Assembly: GCF_965641715.1 (NCBI RefSeq)
Contig: NZ_OZ282453.1
Strand: one strand, 5' to 3'
Length of the DNA stretch: 64,000 nt
Source: Escherichia coli
GTDB lineage: Bacteria > Pseudomonadota > Gammaproteobacteria > Enterobacterales > Enterobacteriaceae
Part shown: positions 36,301 to 45,300 of the stretch, in pieces
Layout: the number at the start of each line of letters is the position of its first letter
How positions within the stretch are numbered: position 1 is the first letter of the stretch
Position numbers: made by a program

Positions 36301-39300
36301 GGCCTGCGTTACGGCAGCGACTCCCCGGAATCTTATGGCCTCGGCAAAGCTGAAGAGCTGTTCGGCGAGGAGATCAGCGAAGAGGACAAAGAGACTGAAT
36401 CTACCGATATGACCAAGTGGCAGATCTTTGTTGAGTATGTGCTGAAAAACAAAGTGATCTGGCTGCTGTGCTTCGCCAACATTTTCCTCTATGTGGTACG
36501 TATTGGTATCGACCAGTGGTCAACCGTATACGCGTTCCAGGAACTGAAACTCTCTAAAGCGGTGGCGATTCAGGGCTTTACGCTGTTTGAAGCTGGTGCG
36601 CTGGTCGGTACGCTGCTGTGGGGCTGGCTCTCTGACCTGGCGAACGGTCGCCGTGGCCTGGTGGCCTGCATCGCGCTGGCGCTGATTATCGCCACGCTCG
36701 GTGTGTATCAACATGCCAGCAACGAATATATCTATCTGGCTTCTCTCTTTGCGTTGGGTTTCCTGGTCTTTGGCCCGCAATTGTTGATTGGTGTGGCTGC
36801 TGTTGGCTTTGTACCTAAAAAAGCGATTGGCGCTGCCGATGGTATTAAAGGCACCTTTGCTTACCTGATTGGTGACAGCTTTGCCAAGTTAGGTCTGGGA
36901 ATGATTGCCGATGGGACACCGGTATTCGGCCTTACCGGCTGGGCAGGCACCTTCGCCGCACTTGATATCGCCGCGATTGGTTGTATCTGCCTGATGGCGA
37001 TAGTGGCGGTGATGGAAGAACGCAAAATCCGCCGCGAGAAAAAAATTCAGCAGTTGACAGTGGCATAAACGTAACTGGTGACTTTTGCCCGGCATGACGC
37101 CGGGCTTTTTTTATTCAATTTGACCAGATTAACGCCTGGGGGAGTTTTCCAGATATCATCAAAAGTTGATGCGCAGGAGAACGCATGATCTGGATAATGC
37201 TTGCCACCGTCGTGGTGGTGTTTGTGGTTGGTTTTCGGGTTCTGACGTCAGGCACCCGATGGGCGATTCGCCGTTTAAGCGAACGACTTAATATTGATGT
37301 TGTACCCGTAGAATCGATGATCGATCAGATGGGTAAAATGCCTGGTAAAGAGTTTTTGTATTATTTGCATCGCCCGGATGAATCTCATCTGCAAAATGCT
37401 GCTCAGGTGTTACTTATCTGGCAAATTGTGATTGTCGATGGTAGTGAGCAGAACCTGTTACGTTGGCATCGGTTGTTGCAAAAAGCGCGTCTTGCTGCGC
37501 CGATCACGGATGCCCAGGCCCGTCAGGCGCTGGCTTTTCTCCGTGAGTTAGAGCCAGATATGCAGGCGATTAATGCCTTCCAGATACGCTTTAACGCCCT
37601 CTTCCAGCCAGAAGAAGGCGTGTTTTGGTTGCATTAACTCAATGTGAGTGGCCTGTCAGAACCAGGCTTCCCACATCGCGCCAAGGTTAAAGTCGTCAAG
37701 CGTTTCCTCTTTTGTACCGTTGACGCGTGCAGTCCGGTCATTATCAACTTGCCCGCCCGTCATGTAGAAACGTAGCATTGGGCGGAATTCCGGGCCCATC
37801 GCAATAGAAATGTTCTGTGACAGCGTCAGCTTCCAGCCTGAATTATCTCCGCCTTTATCATAATCAACCCGTTGATAACCCGCCTCAAGCCAGGTGGAGT
37901 GAACGTCATTCCAGAAATACATAGGACGGACAATTACGCCATAGTTTTTGCGGTTATCACTCTTAATAGAACTGTTGTCGTAATCATGGAAGGCCAGTAA
38001 ATACTCGATTTGCGCCTGCTGGGTAAATTTATGACTACCTTCAAAGCTGGCGTAAATTGTCGTGAGATCGTCAGTTTTATTGTAAACACTGTTATCAGAA
38101 TTATCAGAGTAGCGGGCAATGACTTTATTTACTCCGCTGTCATTGCTATGGCTTACAACAAATGCCCCCTGCCAGGCTTTCAGTTTGTCTTCACCTTCGA
38201 CCGCTTTTGAGTCGAAGCCGTAGTTAGCGTACAACTCAAGATCCAGTGGCCCCAGTTTCATACCATGGATTTTGGACGTTACCGCATAATTGCCTTTGTC
38301 GCCCGTTCCTGACCCGCCAGTACAGGTAATGCGTGACGGATTGGTCTCATCCTCCATCACTTCAGGATTACAGGATTCAACCGCTGCGACAGTAGCAAGG
38401 TCAAACTTGATGCCACCAATGTCGAAATTTTTCACCCCGGCACCCTGACCATCGTGAGTCATCCAGAAGTAGTCATTAATGCCCTGTTGCGGGCGCTGGT
38501 GGAAGTCACGACCAGCCCAGATATAGGCGTCAGGATTGGATGCCAAAACATTGGTGACACCAGCGTAGGCTTTTTTCAGGTTAACTTCGTCGCCCCAGTG
38601 ATCAATCATGATATTGACATCCCAGATTGCGCCGTTATCGCTCTTGAAGGCTTTTGATAACTGAAACTCTCCGCCGTTACCTTCGTTCCCCAGACGACCA
38701 ATTGCAGATGCACCATTATAGGAGCCGTCTACAGCAACATATTTTTGATCGCCGCTTTGAAAATGAGCCCCATAACGGGCATACCCACTAAATTTTACGC
38801 CAAAGGGAATTGCCATATCCGGAGACTGCGCAGCACTTTCCGGTTCGTTAATCACATCCACTTTTTTCGCTGCCGCGGCATCCATTTTTTCTTGCCTTTC
38901 GGCTAATGCTTTATCGACGGCTTTTGCCACAATGGCGTCTATTTGTTCCTGAGTAAATTCCTGAGCCTGGGCAGATATTGAGTACAAAGCGGCAATAACC
39001 GCCAGGGTAACTGGAAGTGTATTTATCTTTTTCATGATTATCTCACGCACACGTTATAATTCATTATGCGTTGGGCATAATAAATATAAGGTGTGTATTA
39101 ATTTGTTTTATGATAATAAGCAGCCTGTTTCAGCTTGTTTTTAACTACCGAAACAGGTGGTTTATCTATTTTATTCTTGGGTAAAGCAGAGGTTTTATTT
39201 TATCAAATAGATGTTCCTCATAAGCATTAATCAATTATCTTTGATAAAGATGAATTATTTCTTCTGCTAATTCTCGTGCCAGCATTGATGTCATTAAATG

Positions 39301-42300: not shown

Positions 42301-45300
42301 GTGTCGCTGCAATGAGCGACAGAGCGTAATCCAGCACCTTGTCACCCCGTTGCATTCCGTAGTCCGCCATATCAATGGCTTTTACGGGTATTCCCTGGGG
42401 GGCGGCCTTTTCTGCGAGCATGTTTAACATATACTTTACCTGCGGTCCGAGTAGCACCACCTGATATTTTGGAAACTGAATATCAAATTCGGAAACTCCG
42501 TAGGCATCTATCTCTACCGGTAGCTCTCTGCTTTCTGCGGCCTCGACCATTTTTTTCACCAGCAGACTGGTTGACATCCCCGCAGAGCAACACAACATAA
42601 TCCTGACCATCTGACACATCCTCTGAATGTAAAAATCTATTTCGCAATTGATTTGATATCATTTGGAAACCGGTTTCCATTCATGGAAACATAAACTGTG
42701 ACGGCTATCAGATTTCGCTATAAAGTCGCGTTATTATTTCGATTCTGTTCACATTTTTATCATTATTAGCTCAGTTTTGAGATGCCATGGAAAATCGGTT
42801 TCCATTAGAAAACGGAAACAGTTATACTGCGAACGGCTAATATTTAAGCCAACAGGAATTCAGGATTGTGGGAGCCAGGGCCGCTCTGTCAGGGGAGAAT
42901 GATGTCTACTATCAATGATGTATCGCGTTTGGCTGGCGTTTCAAAAGCGACGGTTTCTCGGGTGTTGAGCGGATCGCGTGGTGTTAAAGAAGCCAGCCGT
43001 CTCGCGGTATTGAAAGCCGTCGAAGAGCTAAACTATCGTCCCAATGTCATTGCGCAGTCACTGCTGACGCAATCTACGGGCTGTATCGGTGTAATTTGTG
43101 CTCAGGAAAACATTAATCAGACCACCGGTTATCTTTACGCTCTGGAAAAACATCTCAGCCAGCATCAAAAACATCTACTTCTTCGCTTCGCCAGCAATAA
43201 AGCCGAGGTAAAGAACGCCCTTGATGAGCTGAGCTGTGGTTTGTGTGATGACGTACTGATTATTGGTGCGCGTTTCCCACTGAATATTCATCAGGAAAAC
43301 GTGATACTGGTGGACTGCCTTGAGACGGGTAATGATGTTAACAGTATTCAGTTCGATCACACATTCGCGACTGAAACCGCTTGTAACTATCTGATAAGTC
43401 AGAACAGACGCCAAATCGCCCTCATCCACCCACACGGTATGGGATTTTCTGACCAGGTCTTACTGGGCTATAAACACGCGCTGGAGAAAAACTTTCTTCC
43501 CTTTAACCGTAATCTGGTTTTTATGGAAGCAATCTCTTCCTCAGTGGCTTTGCAGGAGCTGCTAAATAACGCCTCAACACTGAACTTTAATGCGTTATTA
43601 GTTGCTGATGAACAGCAAGCGCAGCGGGTGATACCGCAATTGCAGGCGTTTAATAAATCTGTTCCTGAGGACATTATGGTATTTAGTCTGGCGGGTACTG
43701 TTCATCTTCCGGGGATACCGACCATTCCGGCGATAGAATATTCGCTGGACGAAATGGCCGCCCGCATAGTCAGTTGGCTTAACGAGAAGACGCAGACGAT
43801 GCTGGGTTCATATGTTCTGCGCGGTGATTTAATTATTCCCGATGTACGTTCACGTTAAGTGCTAAATGTATGACGTGAAGCTGCGGCTTCACGTCTACAT
43901 ATCCGAGCATTCAACCTTGCCTAACGCTTCCCAGTAATTGTTCTGGTTATTGCGTTCCATCGCCACAATAGCCTCACGGATGTGCTGCTGATTACTTTCA
44001 TCAGACAACATTATCTTTTCCCAGGCCTCGTCTGATATTGACGCTTGTGGAGTACATATTTTCCGTAAATCAGCTAATACGGTCTTTTTTTCATTCCGTG
44101 ACTTCCAGCGTGGTGAAGGCAAACTTCTCGCCATCAAATAGCCCCTGACTGGTTAGTTTCAGCGCGGGGATCACTGGCAGAGAAAGAAACGCCATCTGAA
44201 TAAACGGCTCATCGGGTAACGGACCGCATTCACGGGCGGCGGCTTTCAAGGCGTCAATTTGCTCGGCCAGCGACTGCGCCGTGTCGGTGCTCATCAGCCC
44301 GGCAATGGGCAACGGTAGATGACTTTGTACCTGGCCGTTACGTACCACGCACAACCCGCCGCCATCCTGAATCACCTGATTGACCGCCAGCGCCATCTCT
44401 TCGGCACTGCGACCGATCACCACAATATTATGGCTGTCATGACTGACCGTCGCAGCCAGCGCACCTTCATTCAGGCCAAAGCCGCCGAGCAAACCACAGG
44501 CCGGAGCCAGACGTTGCCCGTAACGCTCAAGTACGGCAATAAAGCACACATCATCGCGATCAAAACCATTTTCGCTGTAGACGCTGGAGCGGGAGTGCGT
44601 AATCAATTCGTTATGGATGACGTCAATGACCCGATAGCGTTTTCCGGGTGTAAATTGCTGGGCAAAGTCGCTGGCGGAAACTGGCTGACGGGCAATGGTA
44701 TTGCCATACGGCGGAGCGGATTGTGCCAGTCTCGCCGACTCTTCCGCCTGTAAGGTTTGCGCGTCAATCGGTGCGCCTTTCACCAGTACCTGCTGCACCG
44801 TGACCTTACGCGCATCGCTCAACAGGACGATATCAGCCTGCTTACCGGGTGCCAGTAAGCCCAGGTGATTCAGACCAAAGTGGCGCGCCGTAGACCAGCT
44901 GGCGACGCGATATGCCACATGCAGCGGCACATTGTGTTGTTCGATCAGGCGGCGAATTAGGGAATCGATATGCCCTTCATGGGCGATCTCCCACGGGTTA
45001 CGGTCATCAGTACAGAGCATGCATTGCGGGCTGTTAAATTCGTTGATCAACGGTGCCAGTGCGTTGAGATTGCGGGCAGCGGACCCCTCGCGGATCATCA
45101 ACGACATGCCGAGTTGTAATTTCCGGCGTCCTTCTTCCAGCTGATAACTTTCGTGGCAGTTTTCAATACCCGCGGCAATATAGGCGTTGAGTTCTTTACC
45201 ACCCAAACCCGGGCAGTGACCGTCCAGCGTCAGGTGGCGAAATGCATCCAGTTTATCGAGCAGCGCATTCTGCCCGCTAATTACGCCAGGGTAGTCCATC

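What the first reader, a model, noticed from the sequence alone, without database searches (positions are those of the whole stretch)
37113..43890. About 6.8 kb block between uhpT and ade, bounded on one side by a second yicN-like gene
K-12 order as I recall it is uhpT-ade-adeQ-yicN. Here uhpT is followed by an extra yicN-like gene (37185..37637) whose product is highly similar to the canonical YicN at 47419..47871, including a similar RBS region (CAGGAGAACGCATG vs CAGGAGAACTCATG). Then come a porin, a PTS operon and a LacI regulator before ade. The duplicated DUF1198 gene at the edge suggests the block arose by a recombination or duplication event involving the yicN region rather than by a classical integrase-mediated insertion.
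Basis: partly seen in the sequence, partly recalled or inferred. Interest (0 to 1): 0.5.

Follow-up and report, generated by a model that had tools for sequence, protein, structure and literature searches.

The report
Borrowed beta-glucoside operon beside uhpT
A rare 7-kb sugar-uptake operon sits between uhpT and ade in this E. coli; it was copied from its normal yicN–yicS position in another Escherichia lineage and pasted in without any mobile-element machinery, which is a tidy but ordinary case of gene gain.

Summary
The insert is 6,977 bp (37116..44092), slightly larger than reported. It lies between the uhpT terminator and the adeD stop codon. It is present in 25 of 5,426 complete E. coli genomes; the rest, including a K-12-like strain, have uhpT and adeD 45 nt apart.

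It carries a full yicN-like gene, a LacI-type repressor, and a divergent operon: PTS IIB, IIC, a GH1 6-phospho-beta-glucosidase, IIA and a LamB-type porin.

The extra yicN is not a duplicate of the resident gene (85% aa, 79% nt, separate clade). Across Enterobacteriaceae this operon lies natively between yicN/nepI and yicS. Non-coli Escherichia lineages carry yicN'-operon-LacI-yicS' there at 95-98% identity to the block.

So a fragment of that native locus was imported once and joined ectopically. All carriers examined share the same junctions. A CTTTTTTT..ATT microhomology sits at both ends. There is no integrase, IS, tRNA or terminal repeat.

The genes are intact and under purifying selection. 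Conserved operators point to a working, repressor-controlled beta-glucoside system of unknown substrate.

This is an ordinary accessory islet with an unusually legible origin.

The parts
35677..37068 (+). uhpT, the left flank, E. coli-type
   Evidence: 97.7% identical to the K-12-like L002 across uhpA-uhpT. The protein is identical to WP_000879194.1.
37087..37115 (+). uhpT intrinsic terminator (GCCCGGCATGACGCCGGGC + TTTTTTTATT); the recipient side of the left junction ends at 37115
   Evidence: Detected by the terminator scan. Identical to the empty site up to ...TTTATT.
37116..44092 (.). The inserted block, 6,977 bp, 47.0% G+C
   Evidence: Comparison of empty and filled sites. Identical junctions in 13 carriers. 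G+C content.
37116..37144 (+). First 29 nt of the insert, source unknown (the donor's own upstream DNA, or filler)
   Evidence: No match in donor-like loci or in metagenomes.
37185..37637 (+). yicN' (DUF1198, 150 aa), a xenologous copy of yicN and a passenger marking the left end of the donor interval
   Evidence: 85% aa identity to yicN. Pfam DUF1198. Own clade. Full-length allele sits at the native site in L098/L108.
37656..39035 (-). LamB-family carbohydrate porin (459 aa), last gene of the operon
   Evidence: NCBIfam maltoporin subfamily, 3.8e-38. PDB maltoporins, 1e-13. PGAP names it 'carbohydrate porin'.
39235..39537 (-). PTS EIIA, lactose/cellobiose family
   Evidence: TIGR00823, 2.6e-35.
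39534..40931 (-). GH1 6-phospho-beta-glucosidase
   Evidence: Best solved relatives are 4b3k (deposited as 'beta-glucosidase'; from my own knowledge S. pyogenes SPy1599), E = 7e-150, and 5foo (6-phospho-beta-D-glycosidase). NEP and ENG motifs and the YKNRYG motif are shared with 4b3k. GH1 models also match.
40952..42283 (-). PTS EIIC, lactose/cellobiose family
   Evidence: TIGR00410, 367 bits, above its 236-bit cut-off. 85-96% aa identity to orthologues in many genera.
42296..42610 (-). PTS EIIB, lactose/cellobiose family, first gene of the operon
   Evidence: TIGR00853, 2.1e-26.
42664..42679 (.). Perfect palindrome TGGAAACCGGTTTCCA, predicted LacI-type operator O1, about 55-70 nt upstream of the IIB start
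   Evidence: Sequence. Found at the same relative position in loci from Pantoea to Pectobacterium and nowhere else in the 20-kb loci.
42697..42712 (.). CRP-like site TGTGACGGCTATCAGA upstream of the operon promoter
   Evidence: One mismatch to TGTGA-N6-TCACA. Not significant on its own; only the position is suggestive.
42788..42804 (.). Near-palindrome TGGAAAATCGGTTTCCA, predicted operator O2 upstream of the repressor gene
   Evidence: conserved as TGGAAACCGATTTTCCA in other genera.
42902..43858 (+). LacI-family repressor (318 aa), divergent from the operon
   Evidence: NCBIfam LacI family. Pfam LacI + Peripla_BP_3. dN/dS 0.02.
43872..43895 (.). 10-bp-stem hairpin between the convergent LacI and yicS' ends
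   Evidence: Read directly from the sequence.
43895..44095 (-). yicS' fragment: the C-terminal 66 codons of a YicS-family gene; signal peptide and first about 31 codons missing; pseudogene and right-end relic of the donor interval
   Evidence: YicS_fam, 95 bits. Translations. Full-length 97-aa version in L006/L098/L100-L108 next to LacI. PGAP annotates it as 'partial, missing N-terminus'.
44084..44095 (+). Right junction CTTTTTTTCATT|CCGTGAC: yicS' sequence up to ...TC, then 'ATT' shared with the recipient; it mirrors CTTTTTTTATT at 37105..37115
   Evidence: Alignment with intact yicS' and with the empty site. Only 9 CTTTTTTT in the window, two of them at the junctions.
44091..45857 (-). adeD, the right flank, E. 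coli-type; its stop codon changed from TAA to TGA, the GA supplied by yicS' DNA
   Evidence: 97.5% identical to the K-12-like locus.
47419..47871 (+). Resident canonical yicN
   Evidence: 100% aa identity to the K-12-like YicN.

Best explanation
The block is a fragment of the native yicN-[beta-glucoside PTS operon]-lacI-yicS locus of another Escherichia lineage.

Origin, as inferred:
- The ancestral order in Enterobacteriaceae is uhpT-yicN-nepI-[porin-IIA-GH1-IIC-IIB]-LacI-yicS.
- E. coli proper lost the operon, leaving yicN-nepI-yicS.
- Some non-coli Escherichia kept the operon and lost nepI, giving yicN'-operon-LacI-yicS'.
- A 6,977-bp piece was cut from that kind of locus, from about 69 nt upstream of yicN' to about codon 31 of yicS'.
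- It entered an E. coli cell once and was joined by illegitimate, microhomology-guided recombination into the 45-nt spacer between the uhpT terminator and the adeD stop codon, about 10 kb from the homologous site.
- No recipient bases were lost. adeD gained a new stop codon from yicS' DNA.
- The filled allele then spread among diverse E. coli backgrounds by ordinary homologous recombination of its flanks.

Predicted function:
- The porin admits a beta-glucoside across the outer membrane.
- EIIC/EIIB/EIIA import and phosphorylate it.
- The GH1 enzyme cleaves the 6-phospho-beta-glucoside.
- The LacI-type repressor holds the divergent promoters at two TGGAAA..TTTCCA operators until inducer appears, probably with CRP control.
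- yicN' and the yicS' stub are passengers.

Shown here: gene content, rarity, empty and filled junctions, native synteny elsewhere, donor-like loci, single origin, purifying selection, conserved operators.

Inferred: the joining mechanism, the direction and route of transfer, the substrate and the regulation.
For: Rarity and empty site:
- 25 of 5,426 genomes carry the block; the others have uhpT|adeD adjacent.
- The empty sequence CTTTTTTT(T)ATTATTCCGTGA is also present in the divergent Escherichia loci L006 and L098. The empty state is therefore ancestral.

Native position:
- In Citrobacter, Enterobacter, Lelliottia, Leclercia, Kosakonia, Silvania and Superficieibacter the order is uhpT-yicN-nepI-porin-IIA-GH1-IIC-IIB-LacI(-yicS).

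Donor-like loci:
- L098/L108 have ade-yicN'-operon-LacI-full yicS'-yicL, 97.9% identical to window 37145..44095.
- L006 and L100-L107 have adeQ-yicN-operon-LacI-yicS'-yicL at 95-96%. Their yicN is a mosaic whose last ~60 nt are of yicN' type.

Introgression:
- dS of block genes to L098 is 0.03-0.07, against 0.13 (uhpT) and 0.28 (adeD) for the backbone.

Not a paralogue:
- The yicN' cluster is known only from E. coli. The next best match is 84-86%. It forms a separate clade.

Single event:
- JL and JR are identical in 13 carriers, with one T-run length variant.
- The same JR occurs in strain LH50-c.

Microhomology:
- JR is ...GGTCTTTTTTTCATT|CCGTGAC and JL is ...GGGCTTTTTTTATT|CAATTT.
- Only 9 CTTTTTTT occur in 64 kb.

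No mobility genes or features.

Spread:
- The block is 98.3-100% identical among carriers, while their flanks are 95.7-100%.

Function:
- HMM and PDB assignments.
- dN/dS of 0.01-0.1.
- Operators conserved across genera.
Against: - The actual donor was not found. The first 29 nt of the insert match none of the donor-like loci, and a metagenome scan returned only another carrier. The left junction therefore cannot be classified as homologous anchor, microhomology or filler.
- The yicN'/yicS'/yicL' haplotype is about 20% diverged from the E. coli genes, while neighbouring genes differ by 3-8%. I cannot explain this.
- The species identity of L006, L098 and L100-L108 rests on 92-97% flank identity and GTDB representative status, not on a whole-genome phylogeny.
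- No expression or growth data exist, and the substrate is unknown.
- The CRP site is a single near-consensus match with no statistical weight.
- Carrier phylogroups were not determined. 'Spread by recombination' rests only on the contrast between flank diversity and block diversity.
Confidence: 0.75

Rival explanations
1. Rearrangement first, import second. In a donor Escherichia that already had yicN'-operon-LacI-yicS' at the native site, ade(-adeQ) was translocated into yicS', or the operon segment was swapped with it. This created uhpT-yicN'...'yicS-ade in that lineage. The whole arrangement then entered E. coli by plain homologous recombination through uhp and ade.
For: Donor-like lineages show rearrangements just upstream of yicN': adeQ is absent in L098/L108, and yicN is mosaic in L006. 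Both flanks offer long homology for recombination.
Against: - The DNA immediately outside both junctions is E. coli-type (97.5-97.7% to the K-12-like locus, against 92% for ade in donor-like loci). The crossovers would have had to fall exactly at the junctions.
- It needs at least three illegitimate joins.
- No genome with the predicted third junction was found.
Confidence: 0.1
2. The filled site is ancestral for E. coli, and the 99.5% of genomes without the block descend from a precise deletion.
For: - The operon is ancestral in the family and lies next to uhpT-yicN in other genera.
- The uhpT terminator followed directly by the yicN' promoter region resembles that ancestral layout.
- Short repeats (CTTTTTTT..ATT) flank the block.
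Against: - Divergent Escherichia lineages have the same empty ATTATT junction.
- Deletion between the flanking repeats would leave one ATT, not the observed ATTATT.
- Block dS to L098 (0.03-0.07) is well below backbone dS (0.13-0.28).
- The block would have to coexist with a second, 20%-diverged yicN, and with ade-adeQ inserted inside yicS.
Confidence: 0.05
3. Intragenomic segmental duplication of the yicN region, followed by capture of the sugar genes.
For: Two DUF1198 genes lie 10 kb apart with similar RBS regions.
Against: - 79% nt identity, dS about 0.9 and a separate clade.
- Similarity stops about 45 nt upstream of the CDS and at the stop codon.
- yicN' is contiguous with the porin in donor-like genomes.
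- There are no conversion tracts between the copies.
Confidence: 0.03
4. Insertion by a mobile element (integrase island, IS composite, or phage) whose machinery has since been lost.
For: IS1 is active in this neighbourhood in two strains, where it truncates the porin.
Against: - No tRNA, no att-like or terminal inverted repeats, no target duplication of the usual kind, and no transposase or integrase remnants.
- The block ends are ordinary chromosomal gene sequences (yicN' upstream region and the yicS' interior).
Confidence: 0.03

Closest known systems
bgc beta-glucoside operon of septicaemic/uropathogenic E. coli (BgcR, BgcE/F/I, BgcA; summarised in PMC3585215; further details from my own knowledge of Neelakanta et al. 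2009)
   Same: An accessory, strain-specific E. coli locus. It encodes separate lactose/cellobiose-family PTS IIB, IIC and IIA proteins plus a phospho-beta-glucosidase (and, from memory, a porin). It confers use of cellobiose, arbutin and salicin.
   Different: - bgc is controlled by a GntR-type activator; this locus has a LacI-type repressor with TGGAAA..TTTCCA operators.
- No E. coli genome outside 63 rare ones has DNA at least 65% similar to this IIB-IIC-GH1 segment, so the bgc genes are not close relatives.
- The chromosomal site differs.
- A direct protein comparison was not possible, because no bgc sequence was held.
chbBCARFG (chitobiose/cellobiose) operon of E. coli K-12
   Same: The same PTS family (IIB, IIC, IIA as separate proteins). 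Cryptic for cellobiose.
   Different: All three PTS proteins score far below the Chb equivalog cut-offs (for example IIC 199 bits against 760). From established knowledge, chb uses a GH4 enzyme (ChbF), the AraC-type ChbR plus NagC, and has no porin.
ascGFB operon of E. coli (LacI-type AscG repressor, GH1 AscB)
   Same: A LacI-family repressor gene divergent from a PTS/GH1 beta-glucoside operon. Cryptic or accessory character.
   Different: From established knowledge, AscF is a glucose-family EIIBC. The GH1 here matches the AscB/BglA-type NCBIfam models at only about 200 bits, against cut-offs above 620, and is closer to the SPy1599/GmuD type.
Streptococcus pyogenes SPy1599 (PDB 4b3k, organism from my own knowledge) and related GmuD-type 6-phospho-beta-glucosidases
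   Same: Full-length alignment with E = 7e-150. Shared catalytic NEP/ENG motifs and the WSWLNAYKNRYG segment.
   Different: Only the enzyme is comparable. The host, operon organisation, porin and regulator are different.
Homology-facilitated illegitimate recombination / microhomology end-joining of foreign DNA (de Vries and Wackernagel 2002; Chayot et al. 2010; cited from my own knowledge)
   Same: - Integration of foreign chromosomal DNA without site-specific machinery.
- Joints at 3-8 nt microhomologies and no target duplication.
- The LH50-c copy shows the textbook form: one end recombined within the homologous porin gene, the other end joined illegitimately.
   Different: For the primary insertion, no homologous anchor can be demonstrated because the donor's upstream sequence is unknown.
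Classical tRNA- or integrase-associated genomic islands
   Same: Strain-specific block, G+C lower than the flanks (47.0% against 50.7-55%), inserted between conserved genes.
   Different: No integrase, tRNA or att repeats. The block ends are relics of orthologous chromosomal genes.

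Membership tests
Lactose/cellobiose-family PTS beta-glucoside utilisation operon | Separate EIIB, EIIC and EIIA proteins of the Lac/Cel family | tested here: met
   TIGR00853, TIGR00410 (367 bits, above its 236-bit cut-off) and TIGR00823. Pfam PTS_IIB, PTS_EIIC and PTS_IIA.
Lactose/cellobiose-family PTS beta-glucoside utilisation operon | A linked phospho-beta-glycosidase with intact catalytic residues | tested here: met
   GH1 enzyme, E = 7e-150 to the 6-P-beta-glucosidase structure 4b3k; NEP and ENG motifs present.
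Lactose/cellobiose-family PTS beta-glucoside utilisation operon | Demonstrated substrate (growth, uptake, hydrolysis) | not testable with these tools
   No experimental data. No equivalog-level HMM match, so specificity is unknown.
LacI-family repressor-controlled locus | N-terminal HTH plus periplasmic-binding-protein-like sensor domain | tested here: met
   NCBIfam LacI family and Pfam LacI + Peripla_BP_3.
LacI-family repressor-controlled locus | Palindromic operator in the regulated promoter region, conserved among orthologous loci | tested here: met
   TGGAAACCGGTTTCCA and TGGAAA(A)(T/C)CG(G/A)TTT(T)CCA occur at fixed positions in many genera and only in the intergenic region. Binding itself was not tested.
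Integrase-type genomic island | Integrase or recombinase gene, tRNA or att target, flanking direct repeats | tested here: not met
IS/composite transposon | Transposase gene, terminal inverted repeats, target-site duplication | tested here: not met
   No such ORFs or repeats. The CTTTTTTT..ATT repeat is partly native yicS' sequence.
Intragenomic (segmental) duplication of yicN | Copies more similar to each other than to orthologues in other species; shared flanks | tested here: not met
   85% aa / 79% nt identity. yicN' is as distant from E. coli yicN as from Citrobacter or Salmonella yicN, and forms a separate clade.
Homology-facilitated illegitimate recombination | One end integrated through a homologous anchor | tested here: inconclusive
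   The sequence upstream of the left end in the donor is unknown. Met for the secondary LH50-c event, where the porin gene is the anchor.
Homology-facilitated illegitimate recombination | The other end joined at a short microhomology, without site-specific sequence | tested here: met
   JR shares ATT, preceded by CTTTTTTT on both partners.
DUF1198 / YicN family | Match to the family model over the full length | tested here: met
   PF06711 for the product. The function of the family is unknown.

The most novel reading that the evidence does not exclude
The yicN..yicL interval may exist in Escherichia as two anciently diverged haplotypes: yicN-nepI-yicS-nlpA-yicL, and yicN'-operon-lacI-yicS'-yicL'. 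They differ by about 20%, while neighbouring genes differ by 3-8%.

The operon-bearing haplotype repeatedly re-enters genomes ectopically, without any mobility genes, through T-run or gene-internal microhomologies: at uhpT/ade here, and into a porin gene next to xylA in LH50-c. This would amount to a recurrent, machinery-free route by which a lost ancestral catabolic operon is re-acquired, leaving 'postmarks' of its home locus.

A stronger version is that yicN' is retained because it is functionally tied to the operon.
Probability: 0.12. Interest if true: 0.5.

Novelty: new member of a known kind. Interest (0 to 1): 0.3.

Why it matters
It is a clean, fully traceable example of how E. coli regains a catabolic operon its species had lost. 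There is no phage, plasmid, integrase or IS. A chromosomal fragment from a sister lineage was pasted at a terminator T-run, and the gene stubs at its ends reveal the exact home address.

It has three practical uses:
- It is a caution for annotation, because a 'second yicN' and a 'partial yicS' are scars, not new genes.
- It is a marker for introgression from cryptic Escherichia into E. coli.
- It points to a candidate plant-glycoside utilisation trait in environmental and animal-associated strains.

It does not reveal a new kind of system.

Tried and rejected
- **Gene conversion between yicN' and yicN.** Variant yicN' alleles in some carriers looked converted. The 96 diagnostic sites show only scattered shared states, which are also present in the donor-like L098, and no tracts. 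Rejected.
- **Search for the true donor.**
  - The exact yicN' protein occurs only in the uhpT/ade context, in the 23 contigs read.
  - Relatives at 88-94% identity are either L098-type native loci or poor assemblies of carriers.
  - A metagenome scan with a 23-mer from the unexplained left-end 29 nt found one contig, a carrier.
  - blastn-short against all fetched loci gave only chance matches. An earlier fuzzy-regex attempt timed out.
- **bgc operon as the same system.** The paper was not retrievable by DOI. Sensitive blastn shows no similar DNA in the many B2 genomes. It is treated as an analogue only.
- **Literature on yicN/yicS/DUF1198, or on cryptic-clade cellobiose PTS.** Nothing relevant was found.
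- **Terminal repeats, tRNA and promoters.** Nothing beyond chance was found, apart from the uhpT terminator.
- **Carrier phylogroups.** A dnaN-gyrB search showed only that carriers are not one clone, and that the window strain is at most 98.9% identical to any complete genome there. Phylogroups were not resolved.

Full report
**1. What is there**

The ORF map of 34-49.5 kb, family searches and the RefSeq annotation of a 99.6% identical locus agree on the gene order:

| Feature | Coordinates | Strand |
|---|---|---|
| uhpT | 35677-37068 | + |
| DUF1198 gene (yicN') | 37185-37637 | + |
| LamB-family porin | 37656-39035 | - |
| PTS IIA | 39235-39537 | - |
| GH1 glycosidase | 39534-40931 | - |
| PTS IIC | 40952-42283 | - |
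| PTS IIB | 42296-42610 | - |
| LacI-family regulator | 42902-43858 | + |
| partial YicS-family gene lacking its N-terminus | 43895-44095 | - |
| adeD | 44091-45857 | - |
| adeQ | about 46032-47366 | + |
| canonical yicN | 47419-47871 | + |

The two DUF1198 proteins are 85% identical. DNA similarity is about 79% and is limited to the CDS and about 45 nt upstream. The block has 47.0% G+C, against 50.5% for the window (profile).

**2. Rarity and the empty site**

- Of 5,426 complete E. coli genomes, 25 carry the block. Nearly all others match only the ~320 nt of flanking uhpT and adeD sequence.
- A K-12-like genome has uhpT-adeD-adeQ-yicN-nepI-yicS-nlpA, with 45 nt between uhpT and adeD.
- The empty site reads GGGCTTTTTTTATT|ATTCCGTGAC.
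- The filled site reads GGGCTTTTTTTATT|CAATTTGACC... on the left and ...ACGGTCTTTTTTTC|ATTCCGTGAC on the right.
- The insert is therefore 37116..44092 (6,977 bp). No recipient base was lost.
- The adeD stop codon changed from TAA to TGA, with the GA supplied by the insert.

**3. Where the operon normally lives**

I scanned one genome per prokaryotic species with the IIC protein. This returned 80 loci with 85-100% identical IIC.

- Mapping the neighbouring genes shows a recurrent order in Citrobacter, Enterobacter, Lelliottia, Leclercia, Silvania, Kosakonia, Superficieibacter and others: uhpC-uhpT-yicN-nepI-[porin-IIA-GH1-IIC-IIB]-LacI-yicS.
- The operon's home is therefore the nepI..yicS interval. 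ade and adeQ are not there in those genera.
- E. coli K-12 has yicN-nepI-yicS with 40 nt between nepI and yicS. It has lost the operon and its regulator.

**4. Donor-like Escherichia loci**

- **L006** is labelled E. coli SCPM-O-B-8794 and is a separate GTDB species representative. It has uhpT-ade-adeQ-yicN-operon-LacI-yicS'(full, 97 aa)-yicL and no nepI.
  - Its flanks are 92-94% identical to the window and its operon 95-98%.
  - The same arrangement occurs in L100-L107, including two complete chromosomes.
  - Its yicN is a mosaic: the first ~390 nt are canonical-type and the last ~60 nt are identical to yicN'.
- **L098** (and L108, L109) has uhpT-ade-(no adeQ)-yicN'-operon-LacI-yicS'-yicL. 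It is 97.9% identical to window 37145..44095, including the full yicN' allele.
- The window's 'yicS' stub is the 3' two-thirds of that yicS'. Homology to intact yicS' runs through ...GGTCTTTTTTTCATT and then switches to adeD.
- Both L006 and L098 have the empty uhpT/ade junction with ATTATT.

**5. yicN' is not a duplicate of yicN**

- Among 5.8 billion proteins, the only cluster more than 90% identical to yicN' is the E. coli yicN' cluster itself. The next matches are 84-86% (Citrobacter, Salmonella, canonical E. coli).
- A neighbour-joining tree places yicN' alleles in their own clade, not beside canonical E. coli yicN.
- dS between yicN' and the L006 (canonical-type) gene is about 0.9.
- I checked for gene conversion between the two copies in carriers. 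The 96 diagnostic sites show no tracts.

**6. One event, then spread**

- Thirteen carriers, taken from complete genomes, drafts and metagenomes, have identical left and right junctions. One has a T6 run instead of T7.
- The exact yicN' protein was found only in this context, in the 23 contigs read.
- Block identity among carriers is 98.3-100%. Their flanks range from 95.7 to 100%.
- A dnaN-gyrB segment 30 kb away shows the carriers are not one clone.
- dS of block genes to L098 (0.03-0.07) is lower than dS of the adjacent backbone genes (uhpT 0.13, adeD 0.28).

Together these favour a single introgression into E. coli, after the lineages had split, followed by spread through flanking homology. 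The alternative of an ancestral block lost from most genomes fits these numbers poorly.

**7. How it was joined**

- There is no tRNA, no terminal repeat above chance and no recombinase or transposase gene.
- The recipient side of the left junction is the T-run of the uhpT terminator, CTTTTTTTATT.
- The donor side of the right junction is CTTTTTTTCATT inside yicS' (codons E-K-K).
- Only nine CTTTTTTT occur in the 64-kb window on both strands. Two of them sit at the two junctions.
- The right joint shares ATT between the partners.

This is the signature of microhomology-guided illegitimate recombination.

Whether the left joint used a homologous anchor cannot be decided. The first 29 nt of the insert match none of the donor-like loci, the metagenome scan found only a carrier, and nothing else among the fetched loci matches.

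In other genera the uhpT terminator is followed directly by the yicN promoter region. A donor with that layout would make this a homology-facilitated event, but no such donor was found.

**8. A second relocation corroborates the mechanism class**

In strain LH50-c the cassette lies near xylA. It corresponds to window ~38600-44272, at 99.5% identity, and still carries the yicS'|adeD junction plus 183 nt of adeD.

- Its porin is chimeric. The 3' two-thirds are 89% identical to a Klebsiella oxytoca-type porin.
- Directly after the adeD fragment comes the 5' end and upstream region of that resident porin gene.
- The cassette therefore entered a resident homologous porin gene. One end recombined through homology and the other joined illegitimately.

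Two other strains keep only yicN' and a porin fragment cut by IS1.

**9. Predicted function**

- IIB, IIC and IIA belong to the lactose/cellobiose PTS family. None reaches an equivalog cut-off, so the sugar is not assigned.
- The GH1 enzyme aligns end to end with 4b3k (E = 7e-150). It shares the NEP and ENG catalytic motifs and the YKNRYG segment.
- The porin is a distant LamB relative.
- The 291-nt divergent region contains three candidate sites:
  - a perfect palindrome TGGAAACCGGTTTCCA at 42664-42679;
  - a near-palindrome at 42788-42804;
  - a CRP-like site at 42697-42712.
- The palindromes recur at the same positions in orthologous loci from Pantoea to Pectobacterium, and nowhere else in those 20-kb loci.
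- All genes are intact in the carriers examined. dN/dS is 0.01-0.1.

The most likely working model is a repressor-controlled, catabolite-sensitive uptake and cleavage system for a beta-glucoside such as cellobiose, gentiobiose or an aryl-glucoside. The yicS' stub lacks its signal peptide and is out of frame with adeD. It is a pseudogene. yicN' is intact but of unknown function.

**10. Comparison with known systems**

- Functionally the nearest E. coli analogue is the accessory bgc operon, which has the same PTS family, a phospho-beta-glucosidase and a GntR-type activator. This locus has a LacI-type repressor.
- Only 63 genomes contain anything at least 65% similar in DNA.
- chb and asc share individual features but fail on enzyme family, PTS family or regulator (established knowledge).
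- Mechanistically it belongs with illegitimate or homology-facilitated integration of foreign chromosomal DNA, not with integrase islands.
- I found no paper describing this islet.

**11. Verdict**

- Right: there is no integrase, and the yicN region is the clue.
- Wrong: it is not a duplication. It is a xenologous fragment of the operon's native locus, bounded by relics of both yicN and yicS.

It is a new, well-documented instance of a known kind of event. I give it modest interest (0.3).

Noticed in passing
window 28687-32056 (ORFs 28937-30244 and 30460-31956, + strand): A 3.4-kb insertion between ilvN and uhpA, relative to the K-12-like locus, carries two long ORFs (435 and 498 aa). Neither has a Pfam, NCBIfam or PADLOC match. 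The insertion is present in every block carrier examined and in the IS1-truncated strains.
   Followed up: partly
window 47987-48653 (- strand): An HTH antitoxin-like gene (weak MqsA/NadS-type matches) plus a RelE/ParE-family toxin gene lie between canonical yicN and nepI. They are absent from the K-12-like locus and present in all carriers annotated.
   Followed up: partly
window 50268-60803 (+ strand): A 3,511-aa ORF directly after nepI, annotated in RefSeq relatives as the inverse autotransporter adhesin IatC. It occupies the place where K-12 has yicS-nlpA. No canonical yicS exists anywhere in the window, so the truncated yicS' is the only yicS-like sequence.
   Followed up: partly
L003 (NZ_CP100500.1, strain LH50-c) 5949-12707: A second, derived copy of the cassette, still carrying the yicS'|adeD joint and 183 nt of adeD, is inserted into a resident Klebsiella-like porin gene near xylA. 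The porin is chimeric, and the porin 5' end follows the adeD fragment. This looks like a textbook homology-facilitated illegitimate recombination.
   Followed up: partly
L004 (NZ_CP024147.1) 6073-8330 and L005 (NZ_CP182139.1) 6073-8114: Two strains keep only yicN' and a 3' porin fragment. Each is cut by an IS1 element and is followed by tnaA or mdtL in inverted orientation, indicating an IS1-mediated rearrangement or deletion that removed the rest of the block.
   Followed up: no
L006 14646-15098; the same in L101 16554-17006: The yicN of this non-coli Escherichia lineage is a recombinant. 84 of 96 diagnostic sites are canonical-type and the last 12 are yicN'-type, which places a crossover about 60 nt before the stop codon.
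   Followed up: yes
L006 (reverse-complement coordinates) 11799-13176, compared with L002 13438-15766: In the donor-like lineage yicS and yicL are only 75% and 82% identical in DNA to the K-12-like genes, while uhpT..yicN are 92.8% identical. nlpA is absent. This is a sharply more diverged haplotype within one genus and is unexplained.
   Followed up: partly
window 1-6000: The window starts at the dnaA end of a chromosome: many records align at identical coordinates 2000-6000. Its dnaN-recF-gyrB segment is at most 98.9% identical to any of 5,424 complete E. coli genomes, so the source strain belongs to a sparsely sampled lineage. L091 (GCA_053637755.1) is 100% identical over 32-48 kb.
   Followed up: partly
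L053, L054, L057, L059-L062, L064-L066, L070, L082, L085: In Klebsiella, Raoultella, Cedecea, Pectobacterium and Buttiauxella the orthologous operon lacks the GH1 gene between IIC and IIA. Pectobacterium also gives no IIB hit. The cassette therefore exists in at least two architectures.
   Followed up: no
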